Source: Trypanosoma brucei (lineage: Eukaryota). From it: a DNA stretch of 64,000 nucleotides. Position 1 is the stretch's first letter, and each line of letters begins with the position of its first letter. Shown piece by piece: positions 25,846 through 45,007 of this stretch. Below the pieces are notes generated by a model that ran no database searches, was not told the DNA's origin, and saw only the letters and a program-made list of their open reading frames with translations. Position numbers and translations under genes: made by a program. The stretch covers positions 704,001 to 768,000 of the forward strand of contig CP000068.1 of NCBI GenBank assembly GCA_000002445.1, written 5' to 3'.

Positions 25846-28800
25846 ATGGCTGCTCGGTTGGAGGCAATTGCAGCAGAATACTTTCTGCCTGCAAAACCTG
25901 AGAACCGTACGAGGGAAGGAGACAGCGTTAGCAGCAAGGGTGGTAAGATAACACACACCTCTGCTGAAGCAGCGGCAGGAAATAGCGGTCAATACCCACC
26001 AACTTCTTCACAGGAATCCGAAACGGATAAGAAGCGCGGTGGTGTTAGCGAAGATGACTGTGGAAAGTCTTCAACACCTTTAGCATTGCTTGACAGCGCA
26101 CATATTCTTCCCCCTCTCATGCTCTATTTTGAATGCCTACCAACGGAATGGGAAACAACGCCTGCTGTATCCGCAAATCAACCAGCGGTTCCAGGTTTAG
26201 TGCGGACATCGGCGTCAGGTGGCGTGCCAACAGGGTGTGAAGTTGCGTGGCAACGCCCAAGGCAATTCGGATCGGATCCTAGTGATAAATCTTTTTGTGC
26301 AAAGTGGTATGGAAAGCGTAGGAGGCAGGGCACTCAGAAAGAAATGGGAGCCGCGGTCTCATGTGAAGATAGGTATAGGGGAAGGCAGCGAGTACAATCG
26401 GACAATGGCCTCTGGAGGTGGTGTGATGACATGGATGTGTTTGCAAACTTTGCACAGCCCCCGTTGAGTGTTGTTTGCGCTTCGTATGAGATGCTGGACG
26501 AAAGGCACCAACGTGGTCTTAACGCGGTCACCACACTAGTAGAAAAGTGCAACGACTCTTTTCATCGCGAGCAGTGGGTCACGGCGACCTCGTTGTCCAT
26601 GCAGCGCCCACCATTTGGGTTCGGAAGCACTGAGGCAGGCACTTCTACTAATGCTGGTTCCATGCCTGCTTGTGCCTCAACCCCGACACCGACTCTTACA
26701 GACTATCGTAGTTCCATTGTAAACTCTCTTAACAGTTTTTTGCGTAGCTTGAGCAAGCGCGGTGACCAAGTTCTCGTGTTGCATATAATTATACGAGTGG
26801 CCACGTGGCGGTTTTGTAGTAGGAACGAGAGGGTTACTCTTTTATTTAATCACATCCACGCATGTTTGCCGACTGTTCACCCATCAACGGCAACTCTAGC
26901 AATGGAAGCGTGGGCGCAACTTCACGCGATAGGGGCAAGCTCCACGGTATACTTGAAAATTGCGACCGAGATGTTGCGACTGGCATGCACTTTTATAAGT
27001 GATGTGAGTGTGCCTGCGGGCCAAGTTAGTGGGTTTATTATGATCCACCACATAGCGCAGTGGCCTTACTTGCTATATCGTACTTTACTGCGTGACGAAA
27101 GAGATCGGCTCTTGCTCGTGATATGGAAATCATTGATGAGCACTCACCAGCCACACGTGCGCGAGTTGGCGGCAGTGGCGCTGCGAAGCTTGTTTATTCT
27201 GGATATCGTACGGGGAAGTTATTCTTGTATGCGCGAGTTGTTGGACCGAGCTGCTTTACTTGTACTATCACCCGGTGACCACCAAAAGGCACCTTTATCT
27301 TCTCCACGTACTGCACCAGTCACCAAAGGTGCCGCCCATAAGTCACAGCGTGCAACACCGTTAGGCACTTCGTTAAAACAGTTGGAAGCACCCCTTTTAG
27401 TGGGCGAAACCGCTTGTACTCCGAGGGCTGTTGTTGGCACTGAATCTGTCGGTACTGGACAATGTTGTCGAGAGGGCACCTCATGTACAATTACACTCCC
27501 GAGTATCCCTTTTTTTGGGTGCACGATAGCCCGTCAATATTGTTTGAACTGGAATTCATCATCTGGTGACGGTGGTGCGACTTTAGTTGCCACGGAAAGC
27601 GGTAGTAGTGGAGGGGACTTGCTGAGGCCGGCTGCAGAAGAGGCTGTTGTTGTCGCGAAGGGTGAACTGGGGAATGTAGAGGGGCGTTGTTTTGTACCGC
27701 GGTTATCCCCTCCTGCTAATGACGAACCATTTTTGTGCGGGTATATTAAACAAGTTGATCCGGCCAATAAGCGCTTTAAGAACCGGTTGGCAACGATCGC
27801 CCCGTCTCACAACGCGGATACCAACTTGCATGCTAGCACCCTCGTGATTGGAGCGTTCGTGAGTGCCCTGCGTTCCTGTGCTGCCTTCCTTGAAATTCCT
27901 CCCTTAGTTGGTGCAGAAGATACACAACCTGGTGTGGCCACAGGTCTACGAGGTGCTAACGGAGGCGAAACCGTGTCTGTCAGTGAAGCACAGGGAGGTC
28001 CTCCGTGTTCGTCTGAGAGTAGCGAGGAAACCGATTCATGCAGGAGATCAACCAGTCTTGCCGGTAGCAGCCCTTTGTATGACACTGCTGGCGGTGCCAA
28101 AACCACTTTGTCGATTGCAGCCGTGATGGAGCACCTTGACGAAACTTCACTAGGGCGGTCACCACCAAAAGGGGGAAAATATCACGCGGCGCCAAATACT
28201 GGGGATCGGCGATCGCTCGGTTATCCTTCTCGGAGTCAGGAGGGGCAGGGCTCTGCACCAGCGGTCCCTGATGATACCAGAAAGGTCAAAGAATTGGTGT
28301 TGTGGAGGTTATTCCCAGTGCAACCACTTCTCCAATGCTTAGCGCGTGAACGACAGGATAAATCAAGCTCTTTATGGCATGTCGAGCGACTGGTTGCTGT
28401 TTTGGCACTTTATGGTCTTCATACTCTGAAGGAGGGTGAAATTCGTGGAGCTTTAGACATGCTTTTAAGAAGGGCTAAGGTGGCGCATAGGAAGGCTGCG
28501 GCTGGTAAACAGCAGCAGGAGGCGTGTGTTCTACACGTAGCCCTTCCTGCATCTGCCGCTTTTGGTAACTCCACAGTTGGTGGTGGAGTCGGCAGTATTG
28601 CTGGAGACACAGTTGGGACCAGTGAGAAAGACATGTACACACTGTCTCTCGTCAACTTGTCTCTTTTTCTTTCAGCTATTGCAGTGAAGTATCCGCAACT
28701 GTTTGAGGTTACGTTTGTAAGCCATATTTACCCGATGCTTTTCTACGCTCTTCAGCAGGCAACACCAGCTTACTGTCCCGCCGCCAGTGCAGTTCTCGCT

Positions 28801-31800
28801 TTACTGGTACACAACTTTCCCGTATCAAGTCGTGACCGGTTGCAACCCATCGTAGAGCGACTCACTGGTATCGCTACTTCAATGCCTTTCAGCACACATA
28901 CACTGGGGGCTACCGCAAAAATTTGTGGTGTTTACAGAGAAATGCGGCTTCATTGCTGCCTCGCTTTGTTGCAGCGTATTGCTGAAGTATTGAACGATAA
29001 TGGGCCGGTGATCGTGCGGGGCGCCAGGGACACGGCGGTAAGCGATATGGAGAGGGAGTCCGTCTGCACCGATTTCCCCCTGAAGAGCGCATCCGACACC
29101 AGGAGGAAGATTGTTTGCTTTCGTGTGCTTCACACTGTATGCATGGAGTGGGAGGGCACCGCTCTATTTTTCCTTGAGGTGTGTGCTCCATATTTACATC
29201 ATCAGAACACCGTCCTCAGGCGTGCGTGCGTGCAATCATGTGTACGTCTGCTACTGTCGGATTGTTTCCTTTCAAGAGCCGAGAGAGTGGGCGGTTCACC
29301 ACTGAGTGATGCGCTGGATGGTGAAGTGGAGCAGATGGCAGCGTGCGCCGTGAAGTGCCTGTGGGATGGAGACTTGAAAATCGGGTCTCTCTGCGCTCCG
29401 TGCAATCCGACACTATACAGGAGCGAGAGAAACGGGATTATCACCTCCGAGACCCGAGCGTACCCCTTCCTTGCACATGCGTTTGATAACGTTAATTTGT
29501 GCGACGTAGGGAACGTCCGTCGTGGTTTCGGTGACGATGGCGACACCAACAGCGAAGATGAAAACAACCTTAATCTTGACCGAGCGCTAGAGTGCTCACC
29601 GCTTGAGTCGTCAAACCATGACGCAACCTTCACGTGCGAGCGCCACACAGGGCGGTCCCATAACAATATTTTGCGCGAAGTGTTGCATCGCCTCGTTGTG
29701 GTTGCGTTGTGCGACCCCGATGAAACCATACGTCACTCGGCACTCAATAGTCTTACCAAGGAGACGGATCAGTTTCTTTACACCCACAAGGAGATAGTTG
29801 ACCTAATTTTCTCAGCCCTCAACGATGAGTACCCACCTAATCGATTGCAGGCAGTAAGGATACTACGACGACTTGGACACTACATTCCGATGGTTGTGTA
29901 CCCACGGCTGCGAAAAGTATTTTCGCTAGTGATCCAAGATTTCCACAGCACAATGACCAGCTCGGTGAAAAAATCAAAGGTTGTTCAAAAAGGGGATGAG
30001 TGGGCGGGAGCTCGCGGTAACTGTGAGCTTTCTTATGGTAGTAGTCAGAGCCATAGAGTCAACGCAGATACCCCTACGAACGCATTTACCTCTAACAGCA
30101 CCAGTAATGTCGTGAAGTATAGTGCCGATGAGATGATGCTTCTTTTCGAACTTGTGCAGTCGGTACCAAACTTCATTCCAATTTACATCGATACTATGCT
30201 ACAACTCTTGCAGCAAGTGCTTGTACCCCACGATATGCTGGAACGCGGAACTGTCATTACCGCTCTTCACATTGTTTCTTTCCTCATGGACGAAACCACT
30301 CGGGTGGAATGGCCAAAATTTGAGGTATTACTTAGGCCACTTTCGCAGCAGTTACTGCTGCGTGACAATGACACCAATAGGCTACACGTGGCTATTGGCA
30401 CTTTGCAGAAGCTCATACAATATGTTGTCATTGGAAATCCTTTCGATCAAAGGGATGATTTGAAACTTACTGTTGAGAGCCTTTACTCACTTCTCTACCG
30501 TAGGCCACCTATTGACACTGAGCTTTCCCTCTCGGTGGTTAAGCTCCTGGGGACAATTAGTGCCATTTGCACTGACCGTAAGTTTGACGACCCACAGAGT
30601 ACCCCTCTTCTTACCCTTGCTACACTCAGCGGAAGTCGTGGAAATTTTGGAACCTTCGCTAGCACGTACCAGCTATCCATTCGACCAACTCCGGGCTACG
30701 CGATGTTTCTCAGGGCGGCTCGACCAGAAGCTCCTTTTTATGGTAATGAGGCAAAAAGTGGGCGCAGTTCGCAACTCACCGATTATTTGTGGCCTGATGT
30801 TATGTTGCGTGTGTTGCTCCGAACCCTTTCCGATGCACTTGACGATATTATTGCCTTTACTGACGAGGAACTACAAGCCTGCCTGCAGGCAGCAGTGGCG
30901 GTCCTGCGCAGCTCCGACGCACCTTCAAAGTTGCAACTGTACCTTCCTCCACTATTGAGTGTTCTTGCAGGCTTGCTGGAACGCACAGATGAGGATGCTC
31001 CCCTCCGTGTATATGTCACAGAAAGTATCGTTGAACTAGTAAAGCCGGCCGGACGAACTATTGCTCCGATGTTTGAGCTTCTTGTTGTCTTCCTGAGTGA
31101 GCACCTAATGTCTTCAATTTACACACTTCCAAGTTGTTGCAAGCTTCTGATCGGCCTTTGCGAGGCATCTCCAGATTTGGTTCAAGAGCACTGTGAATGG
31201 TTTGTTTTGCTACTGTTGGGAAAGCTAATGCACCACGTTGAAATGGCGACATCAGCTACAGCCTCCGCGACTATGCAGAGACAGAGACGTAATCAAAAAC
31301 AAGGAGCCCCGCAGCAGATTCCTAATGACTTCGATCCATCACCACAAGACACTATAGCAAGGTCTTATGTACCGGGTTCAGTTATAGGTGTTGTCCTCCA
31401 AGCCGTTCTGGCATTGCTTCCCATTGCCGATGGGTCGACGGTTCATTACGCATGCCTCATGTTTTCACAAATATTGAGGCGTGCGGGCGGCATATCGGAG
31501 CCGCTCATGGTGGGTGAGGAGACTGTAGAGGGTCACACATCGAACGTTACCGTTCCTACGGGACTTAGTGTTGAAGTTATAAGGGGCATTGTGCAAGCCT
31601 TGGTGGACCTTCTTGAAAATTTTGACCTGACAGCAATTTCTATGTTCGTGGTCGAGACGGCACTGCTGCTACTTCGAATCTACGCAAAAGCCGCCCATGG
31701 AGTGACCAACCAGCCTTCTACCAGATGCTCAGAAGAAGAATCGACACGGAGAAACATCTTGTTGGTACCCGCTGGTAACACTCCTAAGATACAGGAGACA

Positions 31801-34800
31801 CCTAAAATAACTTTGGGGAGCTTGCCTTACGGGCACCAAGAACCACCTAAAACATGGTTTAGTCAATCTCCGTTGTCTCGCTTGGTAGTGGAGGAAATTG
31901 TGAACAAGAACACAAGCATCACTTACCGTTTTCCCTTCGATGAAGTGACCACCTCGTGGGAGGCACAAGTGGAAATGGATCTCCTCGCATGCGTGTTCCT
32001 GGTGTGTGGCCGTTGCAGGTTACCGGCTGTGTCGTATGAGTTAGTTGTCGGCGAATATATCGAAGAGCGCTTTCAACCAAGTGAGCGGATAAAAGAGTTC
32101 TTTAGGGCTGTCTCGTCTCCAACTTCCCGTGTTTCTCTTCTTCATGGTAGCCAGCAGAAACCACCTCTAAATTCACCGTTGCGTTCTGACGGTTTCGCGG
32201 CAGAGACGGAGTTACGTGGGGAAACGATAGGTATGACACCATCTTGCGAAAAAACGGCGACTCCCACAAAATTTGAGAGAGCATGGAGCAGCATGCATCA
32301 GTTGGTAAAACATACATGCTTCGACGGAGACATACCGCGGAAGTCCGCCCCCATTCCAATGGGTTCTACAAACTTTCCATCAAGCATGCGGTCTTCTCTA
32401 TTGTCATCGCCGTATCCAACACAAAATGTATCGTCAGTTAGAGATATTTCCGTTTTTGCTGGCAGAGAATCAGGGCCTGGGGTTGGGTGCACCACGCATG
32501 TCACGCCTGCAAGCAACATATCCCCTGTGGCATTTGTTTCTGGGGACCGCTTGCTAGCAAGAGTTGCTTCCAGTTTGTCTGAAAATGAAGAGTTGAGGAG
32601 CCTTGGAAGAAAACGGTTGTCACAAGTCTGTGAATCACCATTCAGTGTTGGTGGTGGCGTAGTGAACTTAAGCGGGCGGGCTCCATCATCAGAAGTTCAA
32701 GCGCTAGCAGATAATGTTTCTCTGGACATTGGGCGGGATTACGATAATGAAAATATGGATGGTGATATAGAGGAGCAGCGCTTTTTCAAATTGCACGAAA
32801 ACCTCTCCAACAGTGAGTGGCGACCTTGGTTTGAGCTGTTCTGCGTTATCCTAGTGGAGTGCAGCGACCACGCATGTGTGAGTAGCTGCACTTCTCTGCT
32901 GAGACGGCATTTCAGTATATTTTCCTCCGATATTCTTCCAGTTGCCTTCCTTTCCCATCTGGTTGCATGCGATTGCAAAAGAATGGTGCGGTGGCTAGAG
33001 CTGCTCCGTGACTTCGCATATGCACACGATTATATTCCCCATACGATAGCAGGGGCACTGGCCCAGCTTGCATACAACGTGCGGTTGACTCGAGAGGCCT
33101 TACTTCCCCCCTCATTGGCGAAAACTGTCGCCGAAGAATTTGTCACCTTGGATCTTGTCGCCACACTCGCCGAAAAAGCGCTTGACGCCCCTCTCGTGCT
33201 TGTGTGCGCTGAGGAGAAATTATTATCTGAATTTTCCTGGGAGGCCGCAGCAAGGTTGTACAGAGCTCTAGAAGATTTAAACTATCCATTTCGTACTAAT
33301 ATTTTGTGCAACCAACCCGGCTTTCGCAACGCCATCCGTAAGTTGATGAGAAACTGCAACGGAGAAAAACAGGAAGAACACTGCTGGGATACTCCAGTGT
33401 GCGCTGCAGATGGCGTGCCTGGAGAAAGTGATCATAACTCACCTTTTCCGTGGGAGGTGGCCGATGACGCCACAAGCGTTTTTGGGCTCTCTCCAATGCT
33501 ATGTGGTGTTTGTCCAGTTGCAACAGACCCTAGCAGTTGGAGGCGAGAAGAGAACACGAAGGTGAAGAAACGTATGCCTCCACCAGTGGTGTTGGAGTTT
33601 GCGTGGCCAGAGGTAGCGTTGGGTCAGTACCTCCGCTTAATTTGCATTGGACTGGATGACGTTCACTCTGAAGAGGCTGTTGGAGGTCATAGTTGCCCAA
33701 CAAGTTTGGGGAGAGAGTTACCAGTCAAAATTTCTTCAAACGATGTAGTAGGAGCGATGCGCTGCTACATGCGGGTGTATGATTTTGAGAGTATTTTAAA
33801 TCTCTGGAAGGTCGTGAAGGGTATCCGACTTCTACGGCGAGCTGACGAGAGAGCAGTTAACAACCGTTTCCATGAAATAGAGCGGTCTTTGCTTCGCACG
33901 ATGTGGCCCACATCTGAGTGTCCGACAGAGGCTCACATTGCAAATTTTGTGGTGTCAGCGGCTAAATCGCTTTCTCGATGGGATGTTGTGAAGGAACTGA
34001 GCTACAACGACTTTCTCCCAGACGGTGAAGGCAACTCCCAGTTCACACAGCCATATAGAAGCTTCCCTTTTTATAAGCAGATGGAAATATCTCGTGCCGC
34101 CGCGTTGGTTAAATCGAAGTGCTATGGTGAGGCGAAAGGGGTGCTAGCCCCTTTACGTGCCGCTTTAAGGGATTCATACACCGTATTCTACACTGAAAAT
34201 GCGCGACTCAAAATTGAACTGAGTGTTATGTTTCAGGAAATATCGGACCTCGAGGAAGGCATCAACGCCATAGAGCTTAAGAGAACCACAGGAGGTGCTA
34301 GCAGTGATTTTCCAGCCGGCAGTGGACCCCTTCCTGGCATAGGCACTTCCCATTCAGTGGGCAATTCCGTTTGTGCTTCGCCCGAACTGTGTGGAGAGGG
34401 GAGGGCTGACTATTCACCCTCTTACGCTGGAACGCATGCCGGTCACGAGCAACACTACAGCCAGGGGAAAAGATGTATGGCTTATACGGAGGCCACGATG
34501 CGTCGCCTACAGAACATTGCTGGTCGTCTTCTTCCTGAACACAGCACTATTCTTCAGCGGTTTGAGATAATAGCCCTCCGAAGCACCCTCGGTCCTCCGG
34601 AATGGCAACTGCAAAATATTCTGATATTGTGTGAACGCATTGCCGAAGAGGGTAAACCACGACGTGCTGTACAAGCGATTGAACATTTTCTTACCCCTCC
34701 TATCGATGATGCTGATCGGGAAGGATATCGCGAATACAGAAGTAGTTTAATGTTGGAAAAGTACCGTATCGGACTGCAACACCTGTGTGACCCGCAAGAT

Positions 34801-37800
34801 CTTGAGAGTTTGTCACATCAAATTGCTTGGGAGATGTCCATTGATATTGATATGTTCACCGGAAGCCAACCCACTCCTGTGCAGTTGGCTGCAGAGGATC
34901 CGAGTTCATGTTTACGCTGTGCATACACAGGTGCCATCGGCCAAGAACGCAGTGAGTCAATGTTGCTTCTCTTGTTGTGTCAGCGCAAGATGGTTCGTGC
35001 TAAACGGCGACAAAGACACTGTTTTTCTTCCGGTAGCGCAATAGGCGCTTCAAACGGCTTTGCGGCGGAACCCGTAGAAAGTGTAAACGTTATATCTTCA
35101 CAATCTGAAGACAATGGTTCGTCTAAGATCAGGAGCCCATTGTGCAGTAATGGGGCCACTGGACGAGTAGAGTGCACTATCGACTGCCCTAGGAGTGATG
35201 CTGAAATCGTTCGTGAGTACTATCGTATCGAGGAAATTGTTAGCACACATGAAGCAACGGCCTCTGTTTGGCGCGAGTTGGGGTTGCTGCTGTTTGATGT
35301 ATGCATGGCCATATACAAGGAGTGGGTTTGTACGCGCGAGTCCAAGACGCTCAGCAATTTCTGCATACGGTCGAAGGAAGCGATCAGTGCACTGCAGAAG
35401 GCTGTTACGATTTGGAACACTCAAACATTCAGTTCAATCTCCGGAGTTGGTCCATATCAGAGCACTTCTGTGCGTCGCCTGCGTCACTCTCGCACCGCAC
35501 TACCGGTTGTTCACCTCCTTTTGAAGTCGTTACATCTGGCGATGATGTTAAGCGATATTTTGAGCGATGAAGCGCATCTTAAGTGTTTGAATAACGTCGG
35601 AAGCACGTCCCCTACGGCAGCTGAAGCCTCGGAAAAATGCGATGATGATTACATCGGTGGCGACTTTCACCAAGCACCGAGGAGTAGTTGTGCTGATTCA
35701 GTCAATGAGGTGCTGGAGGACAGCAAGCCATGGTCTGAGGGCATGGGTTTCTTGAATTTGGATTTCTCGCCTGGAATGCATCTGCACTGGGGATGTGCAT
35801 TACCGTTCTTGATAAACGCCGCCGCGCGATACGATGAGCTGCGTAGCGTGGTGCGTGATATGTGTTCGCATTCACGGGTTATGCTGTACCAGTGTGTGTA
35901 TCAGTTGGTTTCTCTTGACCACAACTACTCTGATGGGTGCAAAACAGAAAGGGAACTAAGTCACGAGCACAATAACCCTTGTGGTCTGCGGTCCCCTTCC
36001 TGTATTTCAACCGCTGCGCCGTCGGTACCTTGCTCGCAAGTCCCCGTGGAAGAACAGCTTCTGGCGGAGGACACCGTTAAACGGATGGCTACGCAGGAAC
36101 CACAGGAAGAAAGGTCGCAAAGGTTTGGTCAGTTCACTGACATTCTTTCTAATCTGGGGACTGTAAGTGAAGAGCATAGAACGGTTATTGATCAAACATT
36201 GCAGTTCTGCGAATTCGTGATGGGCGACAAAGGGACAACCCTCATTCTTGGCGGTTGCGCCTTGCCTGTACCTCTGTGGAACCTCCAGCGCTACATGGCC
36301 ATGACGTGTTTGACAGGGGAAACGACTGGCAAATTCTGCGAAGCAGTCAAAGCTGGATCGACTGGTGCGGTTAGGGCAGCATTGGTTTCTGGGGTGTGTA
36401 GTACCAGTGTCGAGTTGCAACGTATTCAACAAGTACGCCGTCAAATGTGTTGTCCTTCCGCGGAGGGAACACAAGAAGAAGTATTCGTGCTTCTGCTATC
36501 TGATGGAACAATGCCACGCTTTCACCGATTTATTCCCACGGGAGGTTCTTCTACAGACTGTGGAGGTAAAACCAGTGGGGGAGCAGTACCTATCACACAG
36601 CCGTTCCACGCAAGTCCGTGCGATGTACGTCGAAATACAAAAGGGTTGAACTGTCCCTCAGCTCTTTTCTCCGATGTGAATTCTTTTTTCTCCCAGCCCT
36701 GTGAATCAAGCACCCCTGTACCGGTAGCGAACCATTTTGTCCGTTTTACTGCAGACCAACGTCAGTTTCCCGGTTTCCAGGAACCTTCTAACTATGTGCC
36801 CCCAATTGCGGCGATGGAATGTGTGATCAGCTGTTTACTAGGTCACTTGCCCGTTCGGTATCTCCGCAGGCCTCTGGTGTTGCCACTAGGATTGAAGGAT
36901 TTCATCACCCAATTACCTAACGTTGCCGTCACTTCCTCCAACTGGCAGATGAAGTTGCCGCCGTCGCTGCAGGCTAAGTGTACTGCATTCATGGGACGCC
37001 AACCGTTGTCACTCTTTCATATTCTTAATGAGTACAAGAAACATTTGTTCAGTAATTCGGCCCTCGACGGACGGCGGGATGATCATCACGGGTGTCAGAG
37101 TAGAGTTTTTAGTGGCGGAAGTGACGGCTCACCGAGGTGTAGTCCCGTGGCCAAGGCTGAGATGCGTGCAGCTTCCCCACCACATCATCGGCGGCATCGC
37201 AGCAAGAAAAGAGGGCTTTCAACGCAGTATGAACAACGTTTGGCGCATGCTTTTGACTATGGGAGTATTCAACCACTCTGCTCATTCATTGAAAAGAATC
37301 TGGAAGTCACATCTTCGGCGACTCAACTGCCCAGACCTGCGGCGCAGATGGAGGCTTTGTATAGCGAGTTGGTGAAACTCCTTCCTCGTTGTTCATGTAA
37401 TAGGCGTGGAACGAAGCCTGAGTCAGGACCATCGCCAACAGAAAGTGGTACCCAGGTGAGTAAGGGAAGTGAGGGTGATCCTGTGGCTGCTGGTGAAACC
37501 TTTTCCGTGTCATCAACACAATGCAAATGCCCTAATACAAACTGGACACAGCTAGATGAATCACTACTGACCGAAGTGCGGCTGATAATTTTACGACACG
37601 AGGCACCACTGTATACTGATGCACTTCAGCTTTCACTTTACACGGCATCAACCGATGCAGGTAAATGGTTAAATATCGTTCAAACCTTTACAGGTGAGCT
37701 GGCAGAGTGTAGCATGATCGAGTACTTGTTGGACGTAACAGATCGTGAGTCCACCACGTTTTTTGTGGATACAGCAACAGGACATGTTGCAACGCACTGC

Positions 37801-39099
37801 TTGGGTGGTCATGCGTTGCAGAGACGTCGTCAATCAAGACACTCCGTGGCCTTTCAGCACAGCCAATCGCTTAACGGCGGAGAACCGGCAACGACAGAAA
37901 CGGGACCAAAAGCAGATGAAGAAGATGTGGATGTGACACCAGGCAGTTCCCCCTTTCCATGCACGGATCCTACGATCTTCCGCCTGACAGGGTCTCTGCT
38001 CGCTGTCTTGCCCCTGAAGTGCCCCTTCGGTGTTTTTCTCAGTACCGCGACGCAGTGCCTGTTTTCTATGCTTCGGTATCAGACAGACCTCGTCGGGATC
38101 GTCAAATATGGTCTTGAAGACCTGAGGGGGTTCGCCTGCCGCCACGTTCCCCTCCAACAAGAACAGTTTCCTGAGAGCACACGAGGTTTTAACGCCGAGT
38201 CGGGGAGGCGGCCCACAAGTGAGCACGGAAGGGGGAGCACAGATGTGGATTCTATACCAGGAGGTTTGGGGTTATCTCCATATGCGGGGTTATCACCGAA
38301 GGGATCGAACAACCAAGTACCCACTTGTGTTTCACATCGTCCAGGGGAGGTGCGAGTGAACACATTTTCTATAGCAGATGCCTCGGGGGCGTCACTGCAC
38401 TCGGCGTTTACCGGGGGGACGTTGCGAGACGGTTCCCCACGTAATACGCCAGAGTCCACAAACTCACAACCCCCATTGCATTCAACACAGGATGTCATCA
38501 CTGCGCACGAGAAGACAGTGAGGTGTGAAGTGCAAGAACCATTTCCGCATGCGATGGAGAGTTGGGTGGTGGCGAATAAAGGACAAGGTGCCACCGTCGA
38601 TGGGGCACCGTTGAGGAGAAAATCATCGTCCGCCGCGGTATTGGGACTCATTTCGGGGATTTCAGTGAAGAAAGCCGCACAGCAACGTTCACTTAACTTG
38701 GATTTACCCAAGCTTTTTGATTGCGCTTCTATCTTCGTGAAACTTAGCGATGATTTGTTGCCGATGCGTAGAGAACCAGCTGTCGAGGCTTTTTCTGGAC
38801 TACAGAGTAAAAGTTTCAAAGACTCAGTTGACACCCTCCGCTGTGAGAGGGCTCGTGAAGATTTAAAGGCCACTGGGTCCCTGCAACATGCAACGAGTGA
38901 TACCGAAGTCGAAGAAAAACGTATGCTGCAGCCTGATAAAAGTTGTAACGCTCACCCACATAATGCGAATGTGGCAATCACCGCACGAACTGTTGAGAGC
39001 CGCGTGGTTCAACTGATTAATGCTGCTGTAAATAACAAAAATCTTATAGGAACTACAGATGTTCCACATCGATGGCGTAGTTGGGCACCGCAGTGGTGA
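25846..39099 (+). CDS. giant (4,417 aa) HEAT/helical-repeat protein with C-terminal FATC domain and degenerate PI3K-like kinase segment (Tra1/TRRAP-like pseudo-PIKK)
   Basis: A single uninterrupted ORF. The last 31 aa, VVQLINAAVNNKNLIGTTDVPHRWRSWAPQW, fit the FATC consensus (V..LI..A....NL......GW..W) found at the C-terminus of every PIKK. About 360 aa upstream is VKYGLEDLRGF, which resembles the K-G-x-EDLRQD N-lobe motif at the spacing seen in mTOR or ATM. Catalytic DRH and DFG motifs are absent. HEAT-like repeats are visible, e.g. RHSALNSLTKETDQFLY...RLQAVRILRRLG. Confidence 0.8.
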   Translation: MAARLEAIAAEYFLPAKPENRTREGDSVSSKGGKITHTSAEAAAGNSGQYPPTSSQESETDKKRGGVSEDDCGKSSTPLALLDSAHILPPLMLYFECLPTEWETTPAVSANQPAVPGLVRTSASGGVPTGCEVAWQRPRQFGSDPSDKSFCAKWYGKRRRQGTQKEMGAAVSCEDRYRGRQRVQSDNGLWRWCDDMDVFANFAQPPLSVVCASYEMLDERHQRGLNAVTTLVEKCNDSFHREQWVTATSLSMQRPPFGFGSTEAGTSTNAGSMPACASTPTPTLTDYRSSIVNSLNSFLRSLSKRGDQVLVLHIIIRVATWRFCSRNERVTLLFNHIHACLPTVHPSTATLAMEAWAQLHAIGASSTVYLKIATEMLRLACTFISDVSVPAGQVSGFIMIHHIAQWPYLLYRTLLRDERDRLLLVIWKSLMSTHQPHVRELAAVALRSLFILDIVRGSYSCMRELLDRAALLVLSPGDHQKAPLSSPRTAPVTKGAAHKSQRATPLGTSLKQLEAPLLVGETACTPRAVVGTESVGTGQCCREGTSCTITLPSIPFFGCTIARQYCLNWNSSSGDGGATLVATESGSSGGDLLRPAAEEAVVVAKGELGNVEGRCFVPRLSPPANDEPFLCGYIKQVDPANKRFKNRLATIAPSHNADTNLHASTLVIGAFVSALRSCAAFLEIPPLVGAEDTQPGVATGLRGANGGETVSVSEAQGGPPCSSESSEETDSCRRSTSLAGSSPLYDTAGGAKTTLSIAAVMEHLDETSLGRSPPKGGKYHAAPNTGDRRSLGYPSRSQEGQGSAPAVPDDTRKVKELVLWRLFPVQPLLQCLARERQDKSSSLWHVERLVAVLALYGLHTLKEGEIRGALDMLLRRAKVAHRKAAAGKQQQEACVLHVALPASAAFGNSTVGGGVGSIAGDTVGTSEKDMYTLSLVNLSLFLSAIAVKYPQLFEVTFVSHIYPMLFYALQQATPAYCPAASAVLALLVHNFPVSSRDRLQPIVERLTGIATSMPFSTHTLGATAKICGVYREMRLHCCLALLQRIAEVLNDNGPVIVRGARDTAVSDMERESVCTDFPLKSASDTRRKIVCFRVLHTVCMEWEGTALFFLEVCAPYLHHQNTVLRRACVQSCVRLLLSDCFLSRAERVGGSPLSDALDGEVEQMAACAVKCLWDGDLKIGSLCAPCNPTLYRSERNGIITSETRAYPFLAHAFDNVNLCDVGNVRRGFGDDGDTNSEDENNLNLDRALECSPLESSNHDATFTCERHTGRSHNNILREVLHRLVVVALCDPDETIRHSALNSLTKETDQFLYTHKEIVDLIFSALNDEYPPNRLQAVRILRRLGHYIPMVVYPRLRKVFSLVIQDFHSTMTSSVKKSKVVQKGDEWAGARGNCELSYGSSQSHRVNADTPTNAFTSNSTSNVVKYSADEMMLLFELVQSVPNFIPIYIDTMLQLLQQVLVPHDMLERGTVITALHIVSFLMDETTRVEWPKFEVLLRPLSQQLLLRDNDTNRLHVAIGTLQKLIQYVVIGNPFDQRDDLKLTVESLYSLLYRRPPIDTELSLSVVKLLGTISAICTDRKFDDPQSTPLLTLATLSGSRGNFGTFASTYQLSIRPTPGYAMFLRAARPEAPFYGNEAKSGRSSQLTDYLWPDVMLRVLLRTLSDALDDIIAFTDEELQACLQAAVAVLRSSDAPSKLQLYLPPLLSVLAGLLERTDEDAPLRVYVTESIVELVKPAGRTIAPMFELLVVFLSEHLMSSIYTLPSCCKLLIGLCEASPDLVQEHCEWFVLLLLGKLMHHVEMATSATASATMQRQRRNQKQGAPQQIPNDFDPSPQDTIARSYVPGSVIGVVLQAVLALLPIADGSTVHYACLMFSQILRRAGGISEPLMVGEETVEGHTSNVTVPTGLSVEVIRGIVQALVDLLENFDLTAISMFVVETALLLLRIYAKAAHGVTNQPSTRCSEEESTRRNILLVPAGNTPKIQETPKITLGSLPYGHQEPPKTWFSQSPLSRLVVEEIVNKNTSITYRFPFDEVTTSWEAQVEMDLLACVFLVCGRCRLPAVSYELVVGEYIEERFQPSERIKEFFRAVSSPTSRVSLLHGSQQKPPLNSPLRSDGFAAETELRGETIGMTPSCEKTATPTKFERAWSSMHQLVKHTCFDGDIPRKSAPIPMGSTNFPSSMRSSLLSSPYPTQNVSSVRDISVFAGRESGPGVGCTTHVTPASNISPVAFVSGDRLLARVASSLSENEELRSLGRKRLSQVCESPFSVGGGVVNLSGRAPSSEVQALADNVSLDIGRDYDNENMDGDIEEQRFFKLHENLSNSEWRPWFELFCVILVECSDHACVSSCTSLLRRHFSIFSSDILPVAFLSHLVACDCKRMVRWLELLRDFAYAHDYIPHTIAGALAQLAYNVRLTREALLPPSLAKTVAEEFVTLDLVATLAEKALDAPLVLVCAEEKLLSEFSWEAAARLYRALEDLNYPFRTNILCNQPGFRNAIRKLMRNCNGEKQEEHCWDTPVCAADGVPGESDHNSPFPWEVADDATSVFGLSPMLCGVCPVATDPSSWRREENTKVKKRMPPPVVLEFAWPEVALGQYLRLICIGLDDVHSEEAVGGHSCPTSLGRELPVKISSNDVVGAMRCYMRVYDFESILNLWKVVKGIRLLRRADERAVNNRFHEIERSLLRTMWPTSECPTEAHIANFVVSAAKSLSRWDVVKELSYNDFLPDGEGNSQFTQPYRSFPFYKQMEISRAAALVKSKCYGEAKGVLAPLRAALRDSYTVFYTENARLKIELSVMFQEISDLEEGINAIELKRTTGGASSDFPAGSGPLPGIGTSHSVGNSVCASPELCGEGRADYSPSYAGTHAGHEQHYSQGKRCMAYTEATMRRLQNIAGRLLPEHSTILQRFEIIALRSTLGPPEWQLQNILILCERIAEEGKPRRAVQAIEHFLTPPIDDADREGYREYRSSLMLEKYRIGLQHLCDPQDLESLSHQIAWEMSIDIDMFTGSQPTPVQLAAEDPSSCLRCAYTGAIGQERSESMLLLLLCQRKMVRAKRRQRHCFSSGSAIGASNGFAAEPVESVNVISSQSEDNGSSKIRSPLCSNGATGRVECTIDCPRSDAEIVREYYRIEEIVSTHEATASVWRELGLLLFDVCMAIYKEWVCTRESKTLSNFCIRSKEAISALQKAVTIWNTQTFSSISGVGPYQSTSVRRLRHSRTALPVVHLLLKSLHLAMMLSDILSDEAHLKCLNNVGSTSPTAAEASEKCDDDYIGGDFHQAPRSSCADSVNEVLEDSKPWSEGMGFLNLDFSPGMHLHWGCALPFLINAAARYDELRSVVRDMCSHSRVMLYQCVYQLVSLDHNYSDGCKTERELSHEHNNPCGLRSPSCISTAAPSVPCSQVPVEEQLLAEDTVKRMATQEPQEERSQRFGQFTDILSNLGTVSEEHRTVIDQTLQFCEFVMGDKGTTLILGGCALPVPLWNLQRYMAMTCLTGETTGKFCEAVKAGSTGAVRAALVSGVCSTSVELQRIQQVRRQMCCPSAEGTQEEVFVLLLSDGTMPRFHRFIPTGGSSTDCGGKTSGGAVPITQPFHASPCDVRRNTKGLNCPSALFSDVNSFFSQPCESSTPVPVANHFVRFTADQRQFPGFQEPSNYVPPIAAMECVISCLLGHLPVRYLRRPLVLPLGLKDFITQLPNVAVTSSNWQMKLPPSLQAKCTAFMGRQPLSLFHILNEYKKHLFSNSALDGRRDDHHGCQSRVFSGGSDGSPRCSPVAKAEMRAASPPHHRRHRSKKRGLSTQYEQRLAHAFDYGSIQPLCSFIEKNLEVTSSATQLPRPAAQMEALYSELVKLLPRCSCNRRGTKPESGPSPTESGTQVSKGSEGDPVAAGETFSVSSTQCKCPNTNWTQLDESLLTEVRLIILRHEAPLYTDALQLSLYTASTDAGKWLNIVQTFTGELAECSMIEYLLDVTDRESTTFFVDTATGHVATHCLGGHALQRRRQSRHSVAFQHSQSLNGGEPATTETGPKADEEDVDVTPGSSPFPCTDPTIFRLTGSLLAVLPLKCPFGVFLSTATQCLFSMLRYQTDLVGIVKYGLEDLRGFACRHVPLQQEQFPESTRGFNAESGRRPTSEHGRGSTDVDSIPGGLGLSPYAGLSPKGSNNQVPTCVSHRPGEVRVNTFSIADASGASLHSAFTGGTLRDGSPRNTPESTNSQPPLHSTQDVITAHEKTVRCEVQEPFPHAMESWVVANKGQGATVDGAPLRRKSSSAAVLGLISGISVKKAAQQRSLNLDLPKLFDCASIFVKLSDDLLPMRREPAVEAFSGLQSKSFKDSVDTLRCERAREDLKATGSLQHATSDTEVEEKRMLQPDKSCNAHPHNANVAITARTVESRVVQLINAAVNNKNLIGTTDVPHRWRSWAPQW

Positions 39100-41619: not shown

Positions 41620-41703
41620 GTGATGAATTTTAAGCTTAGGACACCTTTGGACGCAGGGACCCTGCGATTGAAAACAGTGAAACTTGATCGATTCGTACAC
41701 TGA
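41620..41703 (+). ncRNA. C/D box snoRNA candidate, copy 1 of an exact tandem duplicate
   Basis: An 84-nt element that begins with box C GUGAUGA and ends with box D CUGA. Internal degenerate D'/C' candidates are ...UUGA... and ...GUGAAA.... It is 100% identical to a second copy 193 bp downstream. Trypanosomatid snoRNAs occur as tandemly repeated intergenic clusters in the sense orientation of the transcription unit. Confidence 0.5.
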
Positions 41704-41812
41704 CTAACCTTTCCTTTCTCTTATTTTTTTTGTCCCTTCTGTACCTGAAGCGTTGCGGTGGCACCGGTTCTTGCCTCAAGTGCCGCGTGGCACAACATGT
41801 TGTCGACACCCC

Positions 41813-41896
41813 GTGATGAATTTTAAGCTTAGGACACCTTTGGACGCAGGGACCCTGCGATTGAAAACAGTGAAACTTGATCGATTCGTACACTGA
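41813..41896 (+). ncRNA. C/D box snoRNA candidate, copy 2
   Basis: Identical 84-nt sequence (GUGAUGAAUUUUAAGCUUAGGACACCUUUGGACGCAGGGACCCUGCGAUUGAAAACAGUGAAACUUGAUCGAUUCGUACACUGA). The flanks differ, so the duplicated unit is exactly the RNA-sized element. Confidence 0.5.
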
Positions 41897-42212
41897 TTTC
41901 CATTTGTATTTTTTCCCATTCTACCCAAGTTCTTTCTCCTCCCACGAAAATGTGTCAAATCACCTACTCCTCCATTTTCCCTGTTTGTGTAGCTCTTTGC
42001 AGGCTGTCTATCGTATTTTCCTATTTGTTTGCATGGGTGCCTGTTTTCTTGAAAATGGCGCTAGACATATTTTTTCCTTCTAACCCTGCGATCACCTCTT
42101 GCGTTCAATATATATATTTTTATATATATCTTGTCTAAATGACATGAAAATAAAACTACTAGGAGGTTACAGTTCACTAGCACAACGCTGTTAAGGACCT
42201 CATTATTCAGGT

Positions 42213-43715: not shown

Positions 43716-45007
43716 GCTCTCCCGCCTCCTCATGTACATGATTGTGGTGAGTTGAGGAGTGAAAATCCAAAATACGAAATTAGTGCAAATTCCATTATAT
43801 TCTGTTTTTTTTTTCTGTTGTTGTTCTTGTGTGTGTGTGTGGAGGCAGCAAAAATAAGGTAGCGAGGTTGAGAAGGCAAATGATGTTACTGACGAAATTC
43901 AATTGGTCGCGTTTATTTGGACTTTGGCAACCTCGACTTTCTCTTCTTATAAGTTTTGTTGGCGTCTACATTTTATTTCTACAGTGCCGGTTGCAGAAAC
44001 TTGCTCATTATTTTCCTTCCATCTTATTTTTCTTTTTCGTGTGTACATATTTTTACAAAACTGTATTCCACGCCGTTTTCGGTGCCATTTATTCTTTCGA
44101 TTCCGTGTACTTCCTCCTAGGTGGCAAAGCATCTTTTTTTTTGTTCGTGTCATTGTTAAAATAATGATAATAGTTATTATTATTATTATATATATTTTTT
44201 GTGTGCGTGTGGACACTAGTGGATGGCTGTAACCCTTCCTTTATGTTTTCTTGAATCCTTTCTTTTTAATTCTCTATTGTTGTTTGTTTCACCGCATGAT
44301 TTTACCTGGTGAGCGCCAGCCATTGGCGGTGGGTTCCTTTTTTTTCTTTGTTGTACTTGAGAAGGTACCTGTTTGGTTATTGCAAAGTCGTTACTGACAT
44401 CGATGGGGGGACCACTGGGAAGCAATGGGATGCGGAAGCAGATGAAGGAGAGTTTCATCTGCACTTTTTCAAGTAGTTATATTGCAGAGTGCCTTTGTTT
44501 ATATTTATTTACCTATTGTTTGTTTGTTTTTGTAGAAACAAAACCTCTTCTTCCTCTCTAGCACACGGTAGTGTTCGCTTTGTCAGTGAATGAGGAAAAT
44601 TCCCCTAGTCATGTGAGTTTATAACAGCGCATATATATTTTTTTCATTATTTTACACAAGTTCATACACAAAAGTATCATCTATCTATATTTGTTTATGT
44701 CCGTTTGTCTACCCATCGCACGAAACAGCTCTGTAAGTTATGCTATAATGTTACGGTGGCCGTAAGCTGTCGGGTTGTCGGACAACTTGAAAAATTCCTT
44801 TTTTTGTTAACCGTATATGCTTTTATCAATCCTTCTATATATGTATTAGATTCTTTACTGTTACTCGTTGGAAGGACTACAATAGGCAAGTGAGCGAAGC
44901 AGAGAGAGAGGGAGAAGGAGGAGGATACTGACTGAAATCACTGAGGAAAGGGGAATTACTTGCGACTGATTAGGTGAAACACCAATAACACCCACCTGCA
45001 ACGAGCA

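What the first reader, a model, noticed from the sequence alone, without database searches (positions are those of the whole stretch)
41620..41896. Exact 84-nt tandem duplicate with box C at the 5' end and box D at the 3' end: an unannotated C/D snoRNA pair
The two copies (41620-41703 and 41813-41896) are 100% identical over exactly 84 nt while their flanks differ, so the conserved unit is the size of an RNA gene. The element starts with GUGAUGA (a perfect RUGAUGA box C) and ends with CUGA (box D). It has internal degenerate D' (UUGA/CUGC) and C' (GUGAAA) candidates and a 17-nt potential guide (CUUGAUCGAUUCGUACA) immediately upstream of box D. It sits in an intergenic region on the sense strand of the polycistron, which is how trypanosomatid snoRNA clusters are organised. 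The 109-nt spacer may fold into a short hairpin (ggtggcac...gtgccgc) followed by ACA, so an H/ACA-like partner cannot be excluded. The ORF track mistranslates both copies on the minus strand as MYESIKFHCFQSQGPCVQRCPKLKIHH.
Basis: seen in the sequence. Interest (0 to 1): 0.6.

Follow-up and report, generated by a model that had tools for sequence, protein, structure and literature searches.

The report
Known trypanosome C/D snoRNA, two copies

Summary
Positions 41620-41703 and 41813-41896 (+) are 100% identical over exactly 84 nt, with unrelated flanks, and there are no other copies in the window. The window is T. brucei TREU927 chromosome 5.

The element is a canonical double-guide box C/D snoRNA:
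- box C GUGAUGA
- a 12-nt D' guide
- a degenerate D' box UGGA
- a 6-bp hairpin
- a C' box UUGAAAA
- an 11-nt D guide
- box D CUGA

Both guides pair perfectly with a kinetoplastid LSU rRNA. Anchored with published T. brucei primer coordinates, the positions predicted by the +5 rule fall on LSU-beta U1093/G1094 and C1175. These are the three Nm sites that the literature assigns to TB5Cs1C1, the only C/D snoRNA catalogued on chromosome 5, and an abundant one.

T. vivax has an 84-nt orthologue at the syntenic spot. Its boxes and guides are invariant, its flanks are diverged, and the hairpin carries one compensatory pair change.

The D' guide is the same 17-mer as in human SNORD58 (28S Gm4228).

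Verdict: real, correctly interpreted, already known. Low interest.

The parts
41620..41703 (+). snoRNA gene copy 1 (84 nt), inferred to be TB5Cs1C1
   Evidence: Exact repeat. It is one of only two C..D candidates out of 17 in the window with an rRNA duplex of at least 10 bp next to box D. An orthologue exists in T. vivax.
41813..41896 (+). snoRNA gene copy 2 (84 nt, identical to copy 1). All sub-features lie at copy-1 coordinates + 193.
   Evidence: This copy is identical in T. b. gambiense and T. equiperdum.
41620..41626 (+). Box C, GUGAUGA (copy 2: 41813-41819)
   Evidence: Read from the sequence. UGAUGA is invariant in T. vivax.
41635..41646 (+). D' guide CUUAGGACACCU (copy 2: 41828-41839). 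A41643 pairs with Um1093 and C41642 pairs with Gm1094.
   Evidence: 12-bp perfect duplex with L121 6803-6814, AGGUGUCCUAAG. Identical to the SNORD58 consensus guide. Invariant in T. vivax.
41648..41651 (+). Degenerate D' box UGGA (copy 2: 41841-41844)
   Evidence: Inferred. This is the only register that puts U1093 at the 5th nt and G1094 at the 6th nt upstream. Invariant in T. vivax and present in the SNORD58 consensus.
41652..41666 (+). Internal hairpin CGCAGG-GAC-CCUGCG, which brings D' and C' together (copy 2: 41845-41859)
   Evidence: Predicted in the minimum-free-energy fold. G38-C42 in T. brucei becomes C-G in T. vivax, a compensatory change.
41668..41674 (+). C' box UUGAAAA (copy 2: 41861-41867)
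   Evidence: UGAAAA is invariant, and T. vivax has AUGAAAA. Rfam aligns it to the AUGAAAA C' of SNORD58.
41688..41698 (+). D guide UCGAUUCGUAC (copy 2: 41881-41891). G41695 is the 5th nt upstream of box D and pairs with Cm1175.
   Evidence: 11-bp perfect duplex with L121 6885-6895, GUACGAAUCGA. Invariant in T. vivax.
41700..41703 (+). Box D, CUGA (copy 2: 41893-41896)
   Evidence: Read from the sequence. Invariant in T. vivax.
41704..41812 (+). 109-nt spacer between the copies: a pyrimidine tract followed by a short GC-rich hairpin. Not a recognisable RNA gene.
   Evidence: Fold z-score is -1.1. There is no AGA box and no pseudouridylation pocket. The spacer is unrelated to the flanks of the other copy. 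The catalogue lists no H/ACA member in cluster TB5Cs1.

Best explanation
[quoted passage not shown] It lies in the intergenic region between an amidase-domain gene and a GlcNAc-transferase-like gene on T. brucei chromosome 5, and it is the snoRNA catalogued as TB5Cs1C1.

Inferred biogenesis, from established trypanosomatid biology: it is transcribed as part of the Pol II polycistron and excised. Boxes C and D and boxes C' and D' each form a kink-turn-type motif that binds the core proteins, including the methyltransferase NOP1/fibrillarin.

Two antisense elements base-pair with LSU-beta rRNA:
- The D' guide (CUUAGGACACCU, followed by the degenerate D' box UGGA) places Um1093 opposite the 5th nt and Gm1094 opposite the 6th nt upstream of D'.
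- The D guide (UCGAUUCGUAC, one nt before CUGA) places Cm1175 opposite the 5th nt upstream of box D.

Shown here: the anatomy, the complementarity to a kinetoplastid rRNA, the conservation pattern, and the coincidence with the published sites. Taken from the literature: the Nm mapping, the NOP1 dependence, and the expression data. Inferred: the mode of transcription and processing, and the identity with the published TB5Cs1C1 sequence.
For: Organism and locus. Both flanking ORFs are exact matches to T. brucei TREU927 proteins XP_844908 and XP_844909 on a 1,608,198-bp contig.

Anatomy. Box C, box D, the internal hairpin and the degenerate C' and D' boxes are all present.

Rfam. The best hit is SNORD58 at 28.3 bits, E = 0.001, below its gathering score of 42. 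The 17-nt guide is identical to the SNORD58 consensus.

Targets. L121 is a kinetoplastid rRNA operon in which seven T. brucei rRNA primers from Chikne 2019 Table S1 match exactly. The snoRNA's two longest complementarities to it are 12 nt (snoRNA nt 16-27) and 11 nt (nt 69-79). They lie 81-82 nt apart in the LSU.

Coordinates. Anchoring on the primer 'LSU-beta 1236-1255' (L121 position 6949) gives U6806 = 1093, G6807 = 1094 and C6888 = 1175. PMC9283944 Table 2 lists LSUb_1093 (U), 1094 (G) and 1175 (C) as guided by TB5Cs1C1. NOP1 silencing lowers the methylation score at 1093 from 0.74 to 0.30 and at 1094 from 0.61 to 0.38.

Catalogue. TB5Cs1C1 is the only C/D snoRNA listed for chromosome 5 among the entries read (serials 1-161 of Table S2). 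It ranks 30th by RPKM.

Specificity. Of 17 C..D candidate pairs on both strands of the window, only these two have an rRNA duplex of at least 10 bp adjacent to box D. My back-of-envelope estimate is about 3e-5 chance candidates in the window with both duplexes this close together in the LSU.

Orthology. T. vivax has an 84-nt orthologue at the syntenic position. Boxes and guides are invariant, the flanks and nt 57-67 are diverged, and one stem pair shows a compensatory change. Both copies are kept in T. b. gambiense and T. equiperdum.
Against: I could not retrieve the published TB5Cs1C1 sequence. Liang 2005 and Rajan 2020 are not held and no supplement contains it. Identity therefore rests on chromosome, RNA class and exact target prediction.

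The rRNA used is a kinetoplastid proxy, not T. brucei itself. The coordinate transfer assumes no indel between LSU-beta 1093 and 1236. The offset does change by about 62 nt somewhere between 719 and 1236.

Each complementarity alone is only moderately unlikely. A shuffled 84-mer reaches 11 nt or more somewhere in the rRNA in 8.4% of trials, and 12 nt or more in 3%.

No terminal stem is visible in the flanks of either copy.

The D' box UGGA is a poor match to CUGA.

Cm1175 has a low score (0.42), and its drop on NOP1 silencing was not significant.
Confidence: 0.95

Rival explanations
1. The 84-mer is a dispersed repeat or a UTR/intergenic regulatory element that happens to carry C- and D-like motifs, and is not an RNA gene.
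For: Only sequence-level evidence was generated here. I cannot scan the whole T. brucei genome for further copies. No Rfam family reaches its gathering score.
Against: There are only two copies in 64 kb. The identity boundaries coincide exactly with box C and box D. The T. vivax orthologue conserves exactly the boxes and the two antisense elements, while everything else has diverged. Both antisense elements hit mapped Nm sites assigned to a chromosome-5 C/D snoRNA. The catalogued RNA is abundant in small-RNA libraries.
Confidence: 0.02
2. It is a C/D snoRNA, but its main role is pre-rRNA folding or processing (a chaperone role) rather than methylation, or it has additional non-rRNA targets.
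For: The invariant block shared by T. brucei and T. vivax (nt 12-37, 26 nt) is much longer than the 12-bp duplex seen with the proxy rRNA. Several abundant T. brucei C/D snoRNAs act in processing (PMC6411936 abstract). TB5Cs1C1 is fairly abundant.
Against: The three predicted positions are mapped Nm sites, and two of them depend on NOP1. TB5Cs1C1 is not among the snoRNAs flagged 'This study' or given a reference number in Chikne 2019 Table S2, apparently the processing snoRNAs. Part of the invariant block is explained by the D' box and the stem. The true T. brucei rRNA may also pair further than the proxy does.
Confidence: 0.03
3. The 109-nt spacer encodes an H/ACA-like snoRNA partner, as in mixed trypanosomatid clusters.
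For: A GC-rich hairpin (about 41750-41795) is followed by ACAACA.
Against: The fold is no better than shuffles: z = -1.1, with 26-30 of 200 shuffles folding at least as well. The hairpin is about 45 nt and has no internal-loop pocket. The spacer has no AGA box, which is the trypanosomatid form of the motif (established knowledge, Liang et al. 2005). Nothing similar follows copy 2 or the T. vivax gene. The catalogue has no TB5Cs1H entry, and the only chromosome-5 H/ACA, TB5Cs2H1, is named as a separate cluster.
Confidence: 0.03
4. The repeats encode the 27-aa minus-strand peptide shown by the ORF track.
For: An open frame exists on the minus strand.
Against: It is 27 codons long and starts at GTG, which only counts as a start under the bacterial code used by the ORF tool. 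It lies antisense to the polycistron. The T. vivax substitutions cluster in blocks that follow snoRNA architecture, not codon positions.
Confidence: 0

Closest known systems
T. brucei snoRNA TB5Cs1C1 (Liang et al. 2005 catalogue; targets in PMC9283944 Table 2)
   Same: Same chromosome (5). Same class (C/D). The predicted targets are exactly the three sites assigned to it: LSU-beta Um1093, Gm1094 and Cm1175. It is the only C/D snoRNA listed for chromosome 5 among the catalogue entries read.
   Different: Nothing known differs. The published sequence itself could not be retrieved for a base-by-base comparison.
Human SNORD58A/B/C (Rfam RF00151), guide for 28S Gm4198/Gm4228
   Same: The 17-nt element CUUAGGACACCUUUGGA is identical. 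It sits in the same position, after box C and before a UGAAAA-type C' box. The target G is homologous, inside GGUGUCCUAAG. In both organisms the adjacent U is also methylated: human Um4227 and T. brucei Um1093.
   Different: The score is 28.3 bits against a gathering score of 42. The trypanosome RNA is 84 nt against a 65-nt model. It has an inserted D'-C' hairpin and a functional second guide (Cm1175) that SNORD58 lacks. It is encoded in an intergenic tandem repeat, not in an intron.
Drosophila snoMe28S-Gm3113 (RF00531)
   Same: It shares the GGACACCU core of the same guide.
   Different: The match is very weak: 16.7 bits against a gathering score of 70, E = 8.9.

Membership tests
Box C/D snoRNA (2'-O-methylation guide) | Box C (RUGAUGA) near the 5' end and box D (CUGA) near the 3' end | tested here: met
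   GUGAUGA at 41620-41626 and CUGA at 41700-41703. Both are invariant in T. vivax.
Box C/D snoRNA (2'-O-methylation guide) | Internal C' and D' boxes | tested here: met
   Both are degenerate but conserved. D' is UGGA at 41648-41651. C' is UUGAAAA at 41668-41674 (AUGAAAA in T. vivax). They are joined by a 6-bp hairpin with one compensatory change.
Box C/D snoRNA (2'-O-methylation guide) | An antisense element of at least 10 nt ending 1-2 nt upstream of D or D', with the modified nucleotide opposite the 5th nt | tested here: met
   The 12-bp D' duplex and the 11-bp D duplex are with kinetoplastid LSU rRNA. The +5 positions are U6806 and C6888, which correspond to LSU-beta 1093 and 1175. G1094 lies at +6. 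The rRNA is a proxy, not T. brucei itself.
Box C/D snoRNA (2'-O-methylation guide) | Terminal 5'/3' stem flanking boxes C and D | tested here: not met
   No conserved complementary flanks are seen in copy 1, copy 2 or T. vivax. From memory, many trypanosomatid C/D snoRNAs lack such a stem, so this is not disqualifying.
Box C/D snoRNA (2'-O-methylation guide) | Expressed as a stable small RNA bound by fibrillarin/NOP1, with NOP1-dependent target methylation | not testable with these tools
   Literature only. TB5Cs1C1 reaches 9,691-36,082 RPKM in small-RNP libraries. Nm1093 and Nm1094 drop on NOP1 silencing.
TB5Cs1C1 (specific gene identity) | Located on T. brucei chromosome 5, and guides LSU-beta Um1093, Gm1094 and Cm1175 | tested here: met
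TB5Cs1C1 (specific gene identity) | Sequence identity to the published TB5Cs1C1 sequence | not testable with these tools
   The source papers are not held and the sequence is absent from the held supplements.
Rfam SNORD58 (RF00151) | Score at or above the curated gathering threshold of 42 bits | tested here: not met
   Copy 1 scores 28.3 bits and copy 2 scores 23.4 bits. There are no gathering-level hits anywhere in the window. It shares the guide and the target site but is not a member by Rfam's criterion.
Trypanosomatid H/ACA-like snoRNA (proposed for the spacer) | A single ~60-75-nt hairpin with a pseudouridylation pocket and an AGA box 3 nt from the 3' end | tested here: not met
   The spacer has no AGA. 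The hairpin is about 45 nt and has no pocket. Fold z = -1.1.

The most novel reading that the evidence does not exclude
One conserved SNORD58-type D' guide, with the degenerate D' box UGGA/UUGG, may write two adjacent methyl groups: on the U and on the G of GG-UG-UCC.

T. brucei Um1093 and Gm1094 are both attributed to this snoRNA. In human 28S the homologous Um4227 is listed with an 'unknown' guide, next to SNORD58's Gm4228. The identical 17-nt element, including UUUGGA, is present in both organisms.

So 'one guide, two neighbouring sites' would be an ancient property of this guide, and it would assign the orphan human Um4227 to SNORD58.
Probability: 0.3. Interest if true: 0.3.

Novelty: already known. 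Interest (0 to 1): 0.1.

Why it matters
It matters little for discovery. The RNA, its three rRNA targets and its expression are already published for T. brucei.

It is useful as a positive control for the scan. A reader with no tools correctly recognised a C/D snoRNA from an exact repeat bounded by box C and box D.

Two minor points add some value:
- Its D' guide is the same 17-mer as in human SNORD58, and the same adjacent U and G are methylated in both organisms. That hints that SNORD58 may also guide the 'orphan' human Um4227.
- The gene sits at this syntenic position only in the T. brucei and T. vivax loci examined. It is absent from the corresponding loci of T. theileri, T. cruzi and L. 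major.

Tried and rejected
1. None of the 80 loci fetched carried the neighbouring LSU motif.

2. The viral-contig scan for the D' target found nothing.

3. I tried to obtain the published TB5Cs1C1 sequence. Liang 2005 (PMC1370750) and Rajan 2020 (PMC7549662) are not held. My first guess at an id also failed. The supplements of PMC3273796, PMC9283944 and PMC4855143 contain neither the name with a sequence nor the guide sequence.

4. The T. congolense orthologous locus could not be fetched.

5. My recollection of the yeast 25S sequence initially seemed to conflict with the primer coordinate, which put 1236 only 61 nt after C1175. The real kinetoplastid sequence resolved this, and I dropped the memory-based layout.

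6. The H/ACA reading of the spacer, the minus-strand peptide and the dispersed-repeat reading were each considered and rejected (see the rival explanations).

7. The first version of the complementarity script timed out and was rewritten.

Full report
**Observation**

The + strand carries two copies of an 84-nt sequence, at 41620-41703 and 41813-41896. They are 100% identical. The 5' flanks are unrelated, and the 3' flanks share only scattered pyrimidines. Searching each half with up to three mismatches finds no further copy in the 64 kb, and none is expected by chance. The unit begins with GUGAUGA and ends with CUGA. It lies between two + strand ORFs, inside a run of + strand ORFs.

**Source of the window**

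Both flanking ORFs are exact matches to proteins of Trypanosoma brucei brucei TREU927: XP_844908, an amidase-domain protein, and XP_844909, a GlcNAc-transferase family protein. They lie on a 1,608,198-bp contig. The T. equiperdum orthologue carries a chromosome-5 style locus tag, DPX39_05....

**Anatomy**

Numbering the RNA from the first G of box C:

| Feature | nt | Sequence |
|---|---|---|
| Box C | 1-7 | GUGAUGA |
| D' antisense element | 16-27 | CUUAGGACACCU |
| D' box | 29-32 | UGGA |
| Hairpin | 33-47 | CGCAGG-GAC-CCUGCG |
| C' box | 49-55 | UUGAAAA |
| D antisense element | 69-79 | UCGAUUCGUAC |
| Box D | 81-84 | CUGA |

The hairpin appears in the minimum-free-energy fold. It sits exactly between D' and C', which is the usual way the internal pair of boxes is brought together.

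**Rfam**

Nothing in the window reaches a gathering score. In E-value mode the best hit for both copies is SNORD58, at 28.3 and 23.4 bits against a gathering score of 42. The hit is driven by a 17-nt stretch, CUUAGGACACCUUUGGA, identical to the SNORD58 consensus and followed by a UGAAAA C' box in the same relative position. SNORD58 guides human 28S Gm4198, which is Gm4228 in the newer numbering.

**Literature**

PMC9283944 Table 2 (RiboMeth-seq of T. brucei rRNA) assigns LSUb_1093 (U), LSUb_1094 (G) and LSUb_1175 (C) to the snoRNA TB5Cs1C1. NOP1 silencing lowers the methylation score at 1093 from 0.74 to 0.30 and at 1094 from 0.61 to 0.38. The table's column order was checked.

Chikne et al. 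2019 Table S2 lists the snoRNA catalogue (serials 1-161 were read; its own numbering runs to at least 174). Chromosome 5 has only TB5Cs1C1 (C/D) and TB5Cs2H1 (H/ACA, in a separate cluster). TB5Cs1C1 ranks 30th in one library, at 9,691 RPKM, and reaches 29,686 and 36,082 RPKM in two others.

**Target test**

No T. brucei rRNA is available in the tools. I therefore scanned genome contigs with a published T. brucei primer, 'Sense LSU-beta 1236-1255'. It hit one scaffold, L121. L121 is labelled as a Curvibacter MAG, but it carries a complete eukaryotic rRNA operon. Seven of the T. brucei rRNA primers tested match it exactly: SSU, 5.8S, two LSU-alpha and three further LSU-beta sites. It is therefore kinetoplastid-type.

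Against this operon, the two longest Watson-Crick complementarities of the 84-mer are the following:
- nt 16-27 with AGGUGUCCUAAG (L121 6803-6814)
- nt 69-79 with GUACGAAUCGA (L121 6885-6895)

Applying the +5 rule:
- G76, the 5th nt upstream of box D, pairs with C6888.
- With D' = UGGA, A24 (5th) pairs with U6806 and C23 (6th) pairs with G6807.

Anchoring on the primer (L121 6949 = LSU-beta 1236), these three positions are 1093, 1094 and 1175. They agree with the published TB5Cs1C1 sites in both base identity and number.

The caveat is that the offset between L121 and T. brucei numbering changes by about 62 nt somewhere between LSU-beta 719 and 1236. The transfer therefore assumes no indel between 1093 and 1236. 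The triple coincidence argues that this holds.

**Chance**

A shuffled 84-mer reaches a complement of 11 nt or more somewhere in the 6.9-kb rRNA in 8.4% of trials, and 12 nt or more in 3%. Length alone is therefore only moderately significant.

The window has just 17 C-box...CUGA candidate pairs on both strands. Only these two have a duplex of at least 10 bp ending next to box D. My rough estimate is about 3e-5 chance candidates in the window carrying both duplexes within about 80 nt of each other in the LSU. That estimate does not yet count the match to mapped Nm sites.

**Comparative evidence**

T. vivax has a single 84-nt orthologue at the same syntenic position, between the amidase and GlcNAc-transferase genes (L122 3609-3692). 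The alignment shows:
- The invariant columns are box C (UGAUGA), nt 12-37 (UAAGCUUAGGACACCUUUGGACGCAG), C' (UGAAAACA) and nt 68-84 (AUCGAUUCGUACACUGA).
- The flanks, nt 8-11 and nt 57-67 have diverged.
- In the hairpin, the pair G38-C42 becomes C-G, a compensatory change.

This is the pattern expected of a double-guide C/D snoRNA.

T. b. gambiense and T. equiperdum keep both copies. Their copy 2 is identical to the window's. Their copy 1 differs by one base, at the position equivalent to window 41630, in the non-functional stretch after box C.

No copy lies within 4 kb of the GlcNAc-transferase gene in T. cruzi, T. theileri or L. major. This genomic position is therefore shared only by T. brucei and T. 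vivax among the species examined.

**Spacer**

The 109-nt spacer folds no better than shuffled sequence (z = -1.1). Its hairpin is about 45 nt and has no internal pocket. The spacer contains no AGA. Nothing similar follows copy 2 or the T. vivax gene. The catalogue has no H/ACA member in cluster TB5Cs1. The H/ACA suggestion is not supported.

**Conclusion**

The element is a genuine box C/D methylation-guide snoRNA in two tandem copies. It is almost certainly the catalogued TB5Cs1C1, which guides Um1093 and Gm1094 through the SNORD58-type D' guide and Cm1175 through the D guide on LSU-beta rRNA.

Two gaps remain. I could not compare it base for base with the published sequence, and I used a kinetoplastid proxy for the rRNA.

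It is already known, so interest is low. The only mildly new thought concerns the adjacent U and G. Both are methylated in human 28S as well, where Um4227 has an 'unknown' guide and Gm4228 is guided by SNORD58. A single guide writing both marks may therefore be an ancient property.

Noticed in passing
L121 1105-7509 (RXJO01000217.1, 'MAG: Curvibacter sp. isolate AWTP1-17'): A scaffold filed under a bacterial MAG carries a complete eukaryotic rRNA operon (SSU, 5.8S, LSU). Seven T. brucei rRNA primers match it exactly. It is evidently a kinetoplastid contaminant binned into the MAG.
   Followed up: partly
window 41635-41651; human 28S Um4227/Gm4228 (PMC11550049 table): Human Um4227 is listed with an 'Unknown' guide, next to SNORD58's Gm4228. 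In T. brucei the homologous adjacent Um1093 and Gm1094 are both assigned to the snoRNA carrying the identical 17-nt guide. SNORD58 may therefore guide both human sites.
   Followed up: partly
window 41630 (nt 11 of copy 1): T. b. gambiense and T. equiperdum have A instead of T here, in copy 1 only. The two copies are therefore identical in TREU927 but differ by one base in the sister lineages. This could reflect recent gene conversion in TREU927 or a lineage-specific substitution.
   Followed up: partly
L123, L124, L125 (T. cruzi, T. theileri, L. major loci around the GlcNAc-transferase orthologue): The snoRNA is absent from the corresponding intergenic region in these species. This holds even in T. 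theileri, where the amidase-GlcNAc-transferase synteny is kept. The orthologous guide, if it exists, must lie elsewhere in those genomes.
   Followed up: partly
window 41631-41656 (nt 12-37): A 26-nt block is invariant between T. brucei and T. vivax, yet only 12 nt of it pair with the proxy rRNA. The conserved UAAG on the 5' side of the guide is not explained by the proxy duplex. The real T. brucei rRNA may pair further, or there may be accessory pairing.
   Followed up: no
window 42107-42135: A short (TA)n/T-rich low-complexity tract sits in the 5' region upstream of the GlcNAc-transferase ORF. Loosely similar AT-rich tracts occur at 44172-44198 and 44631-44653.
   Followed up: no
window 25846-39099 (+): A very long ORF of 4,417 aa lies immediately upstream in the same polycistron. 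Orthologues of 4,553 and 4,898 aa are syntenic in T. vivax and T. theileri and have no Pfam hit on record. It was not examined further.
   Followed up: no
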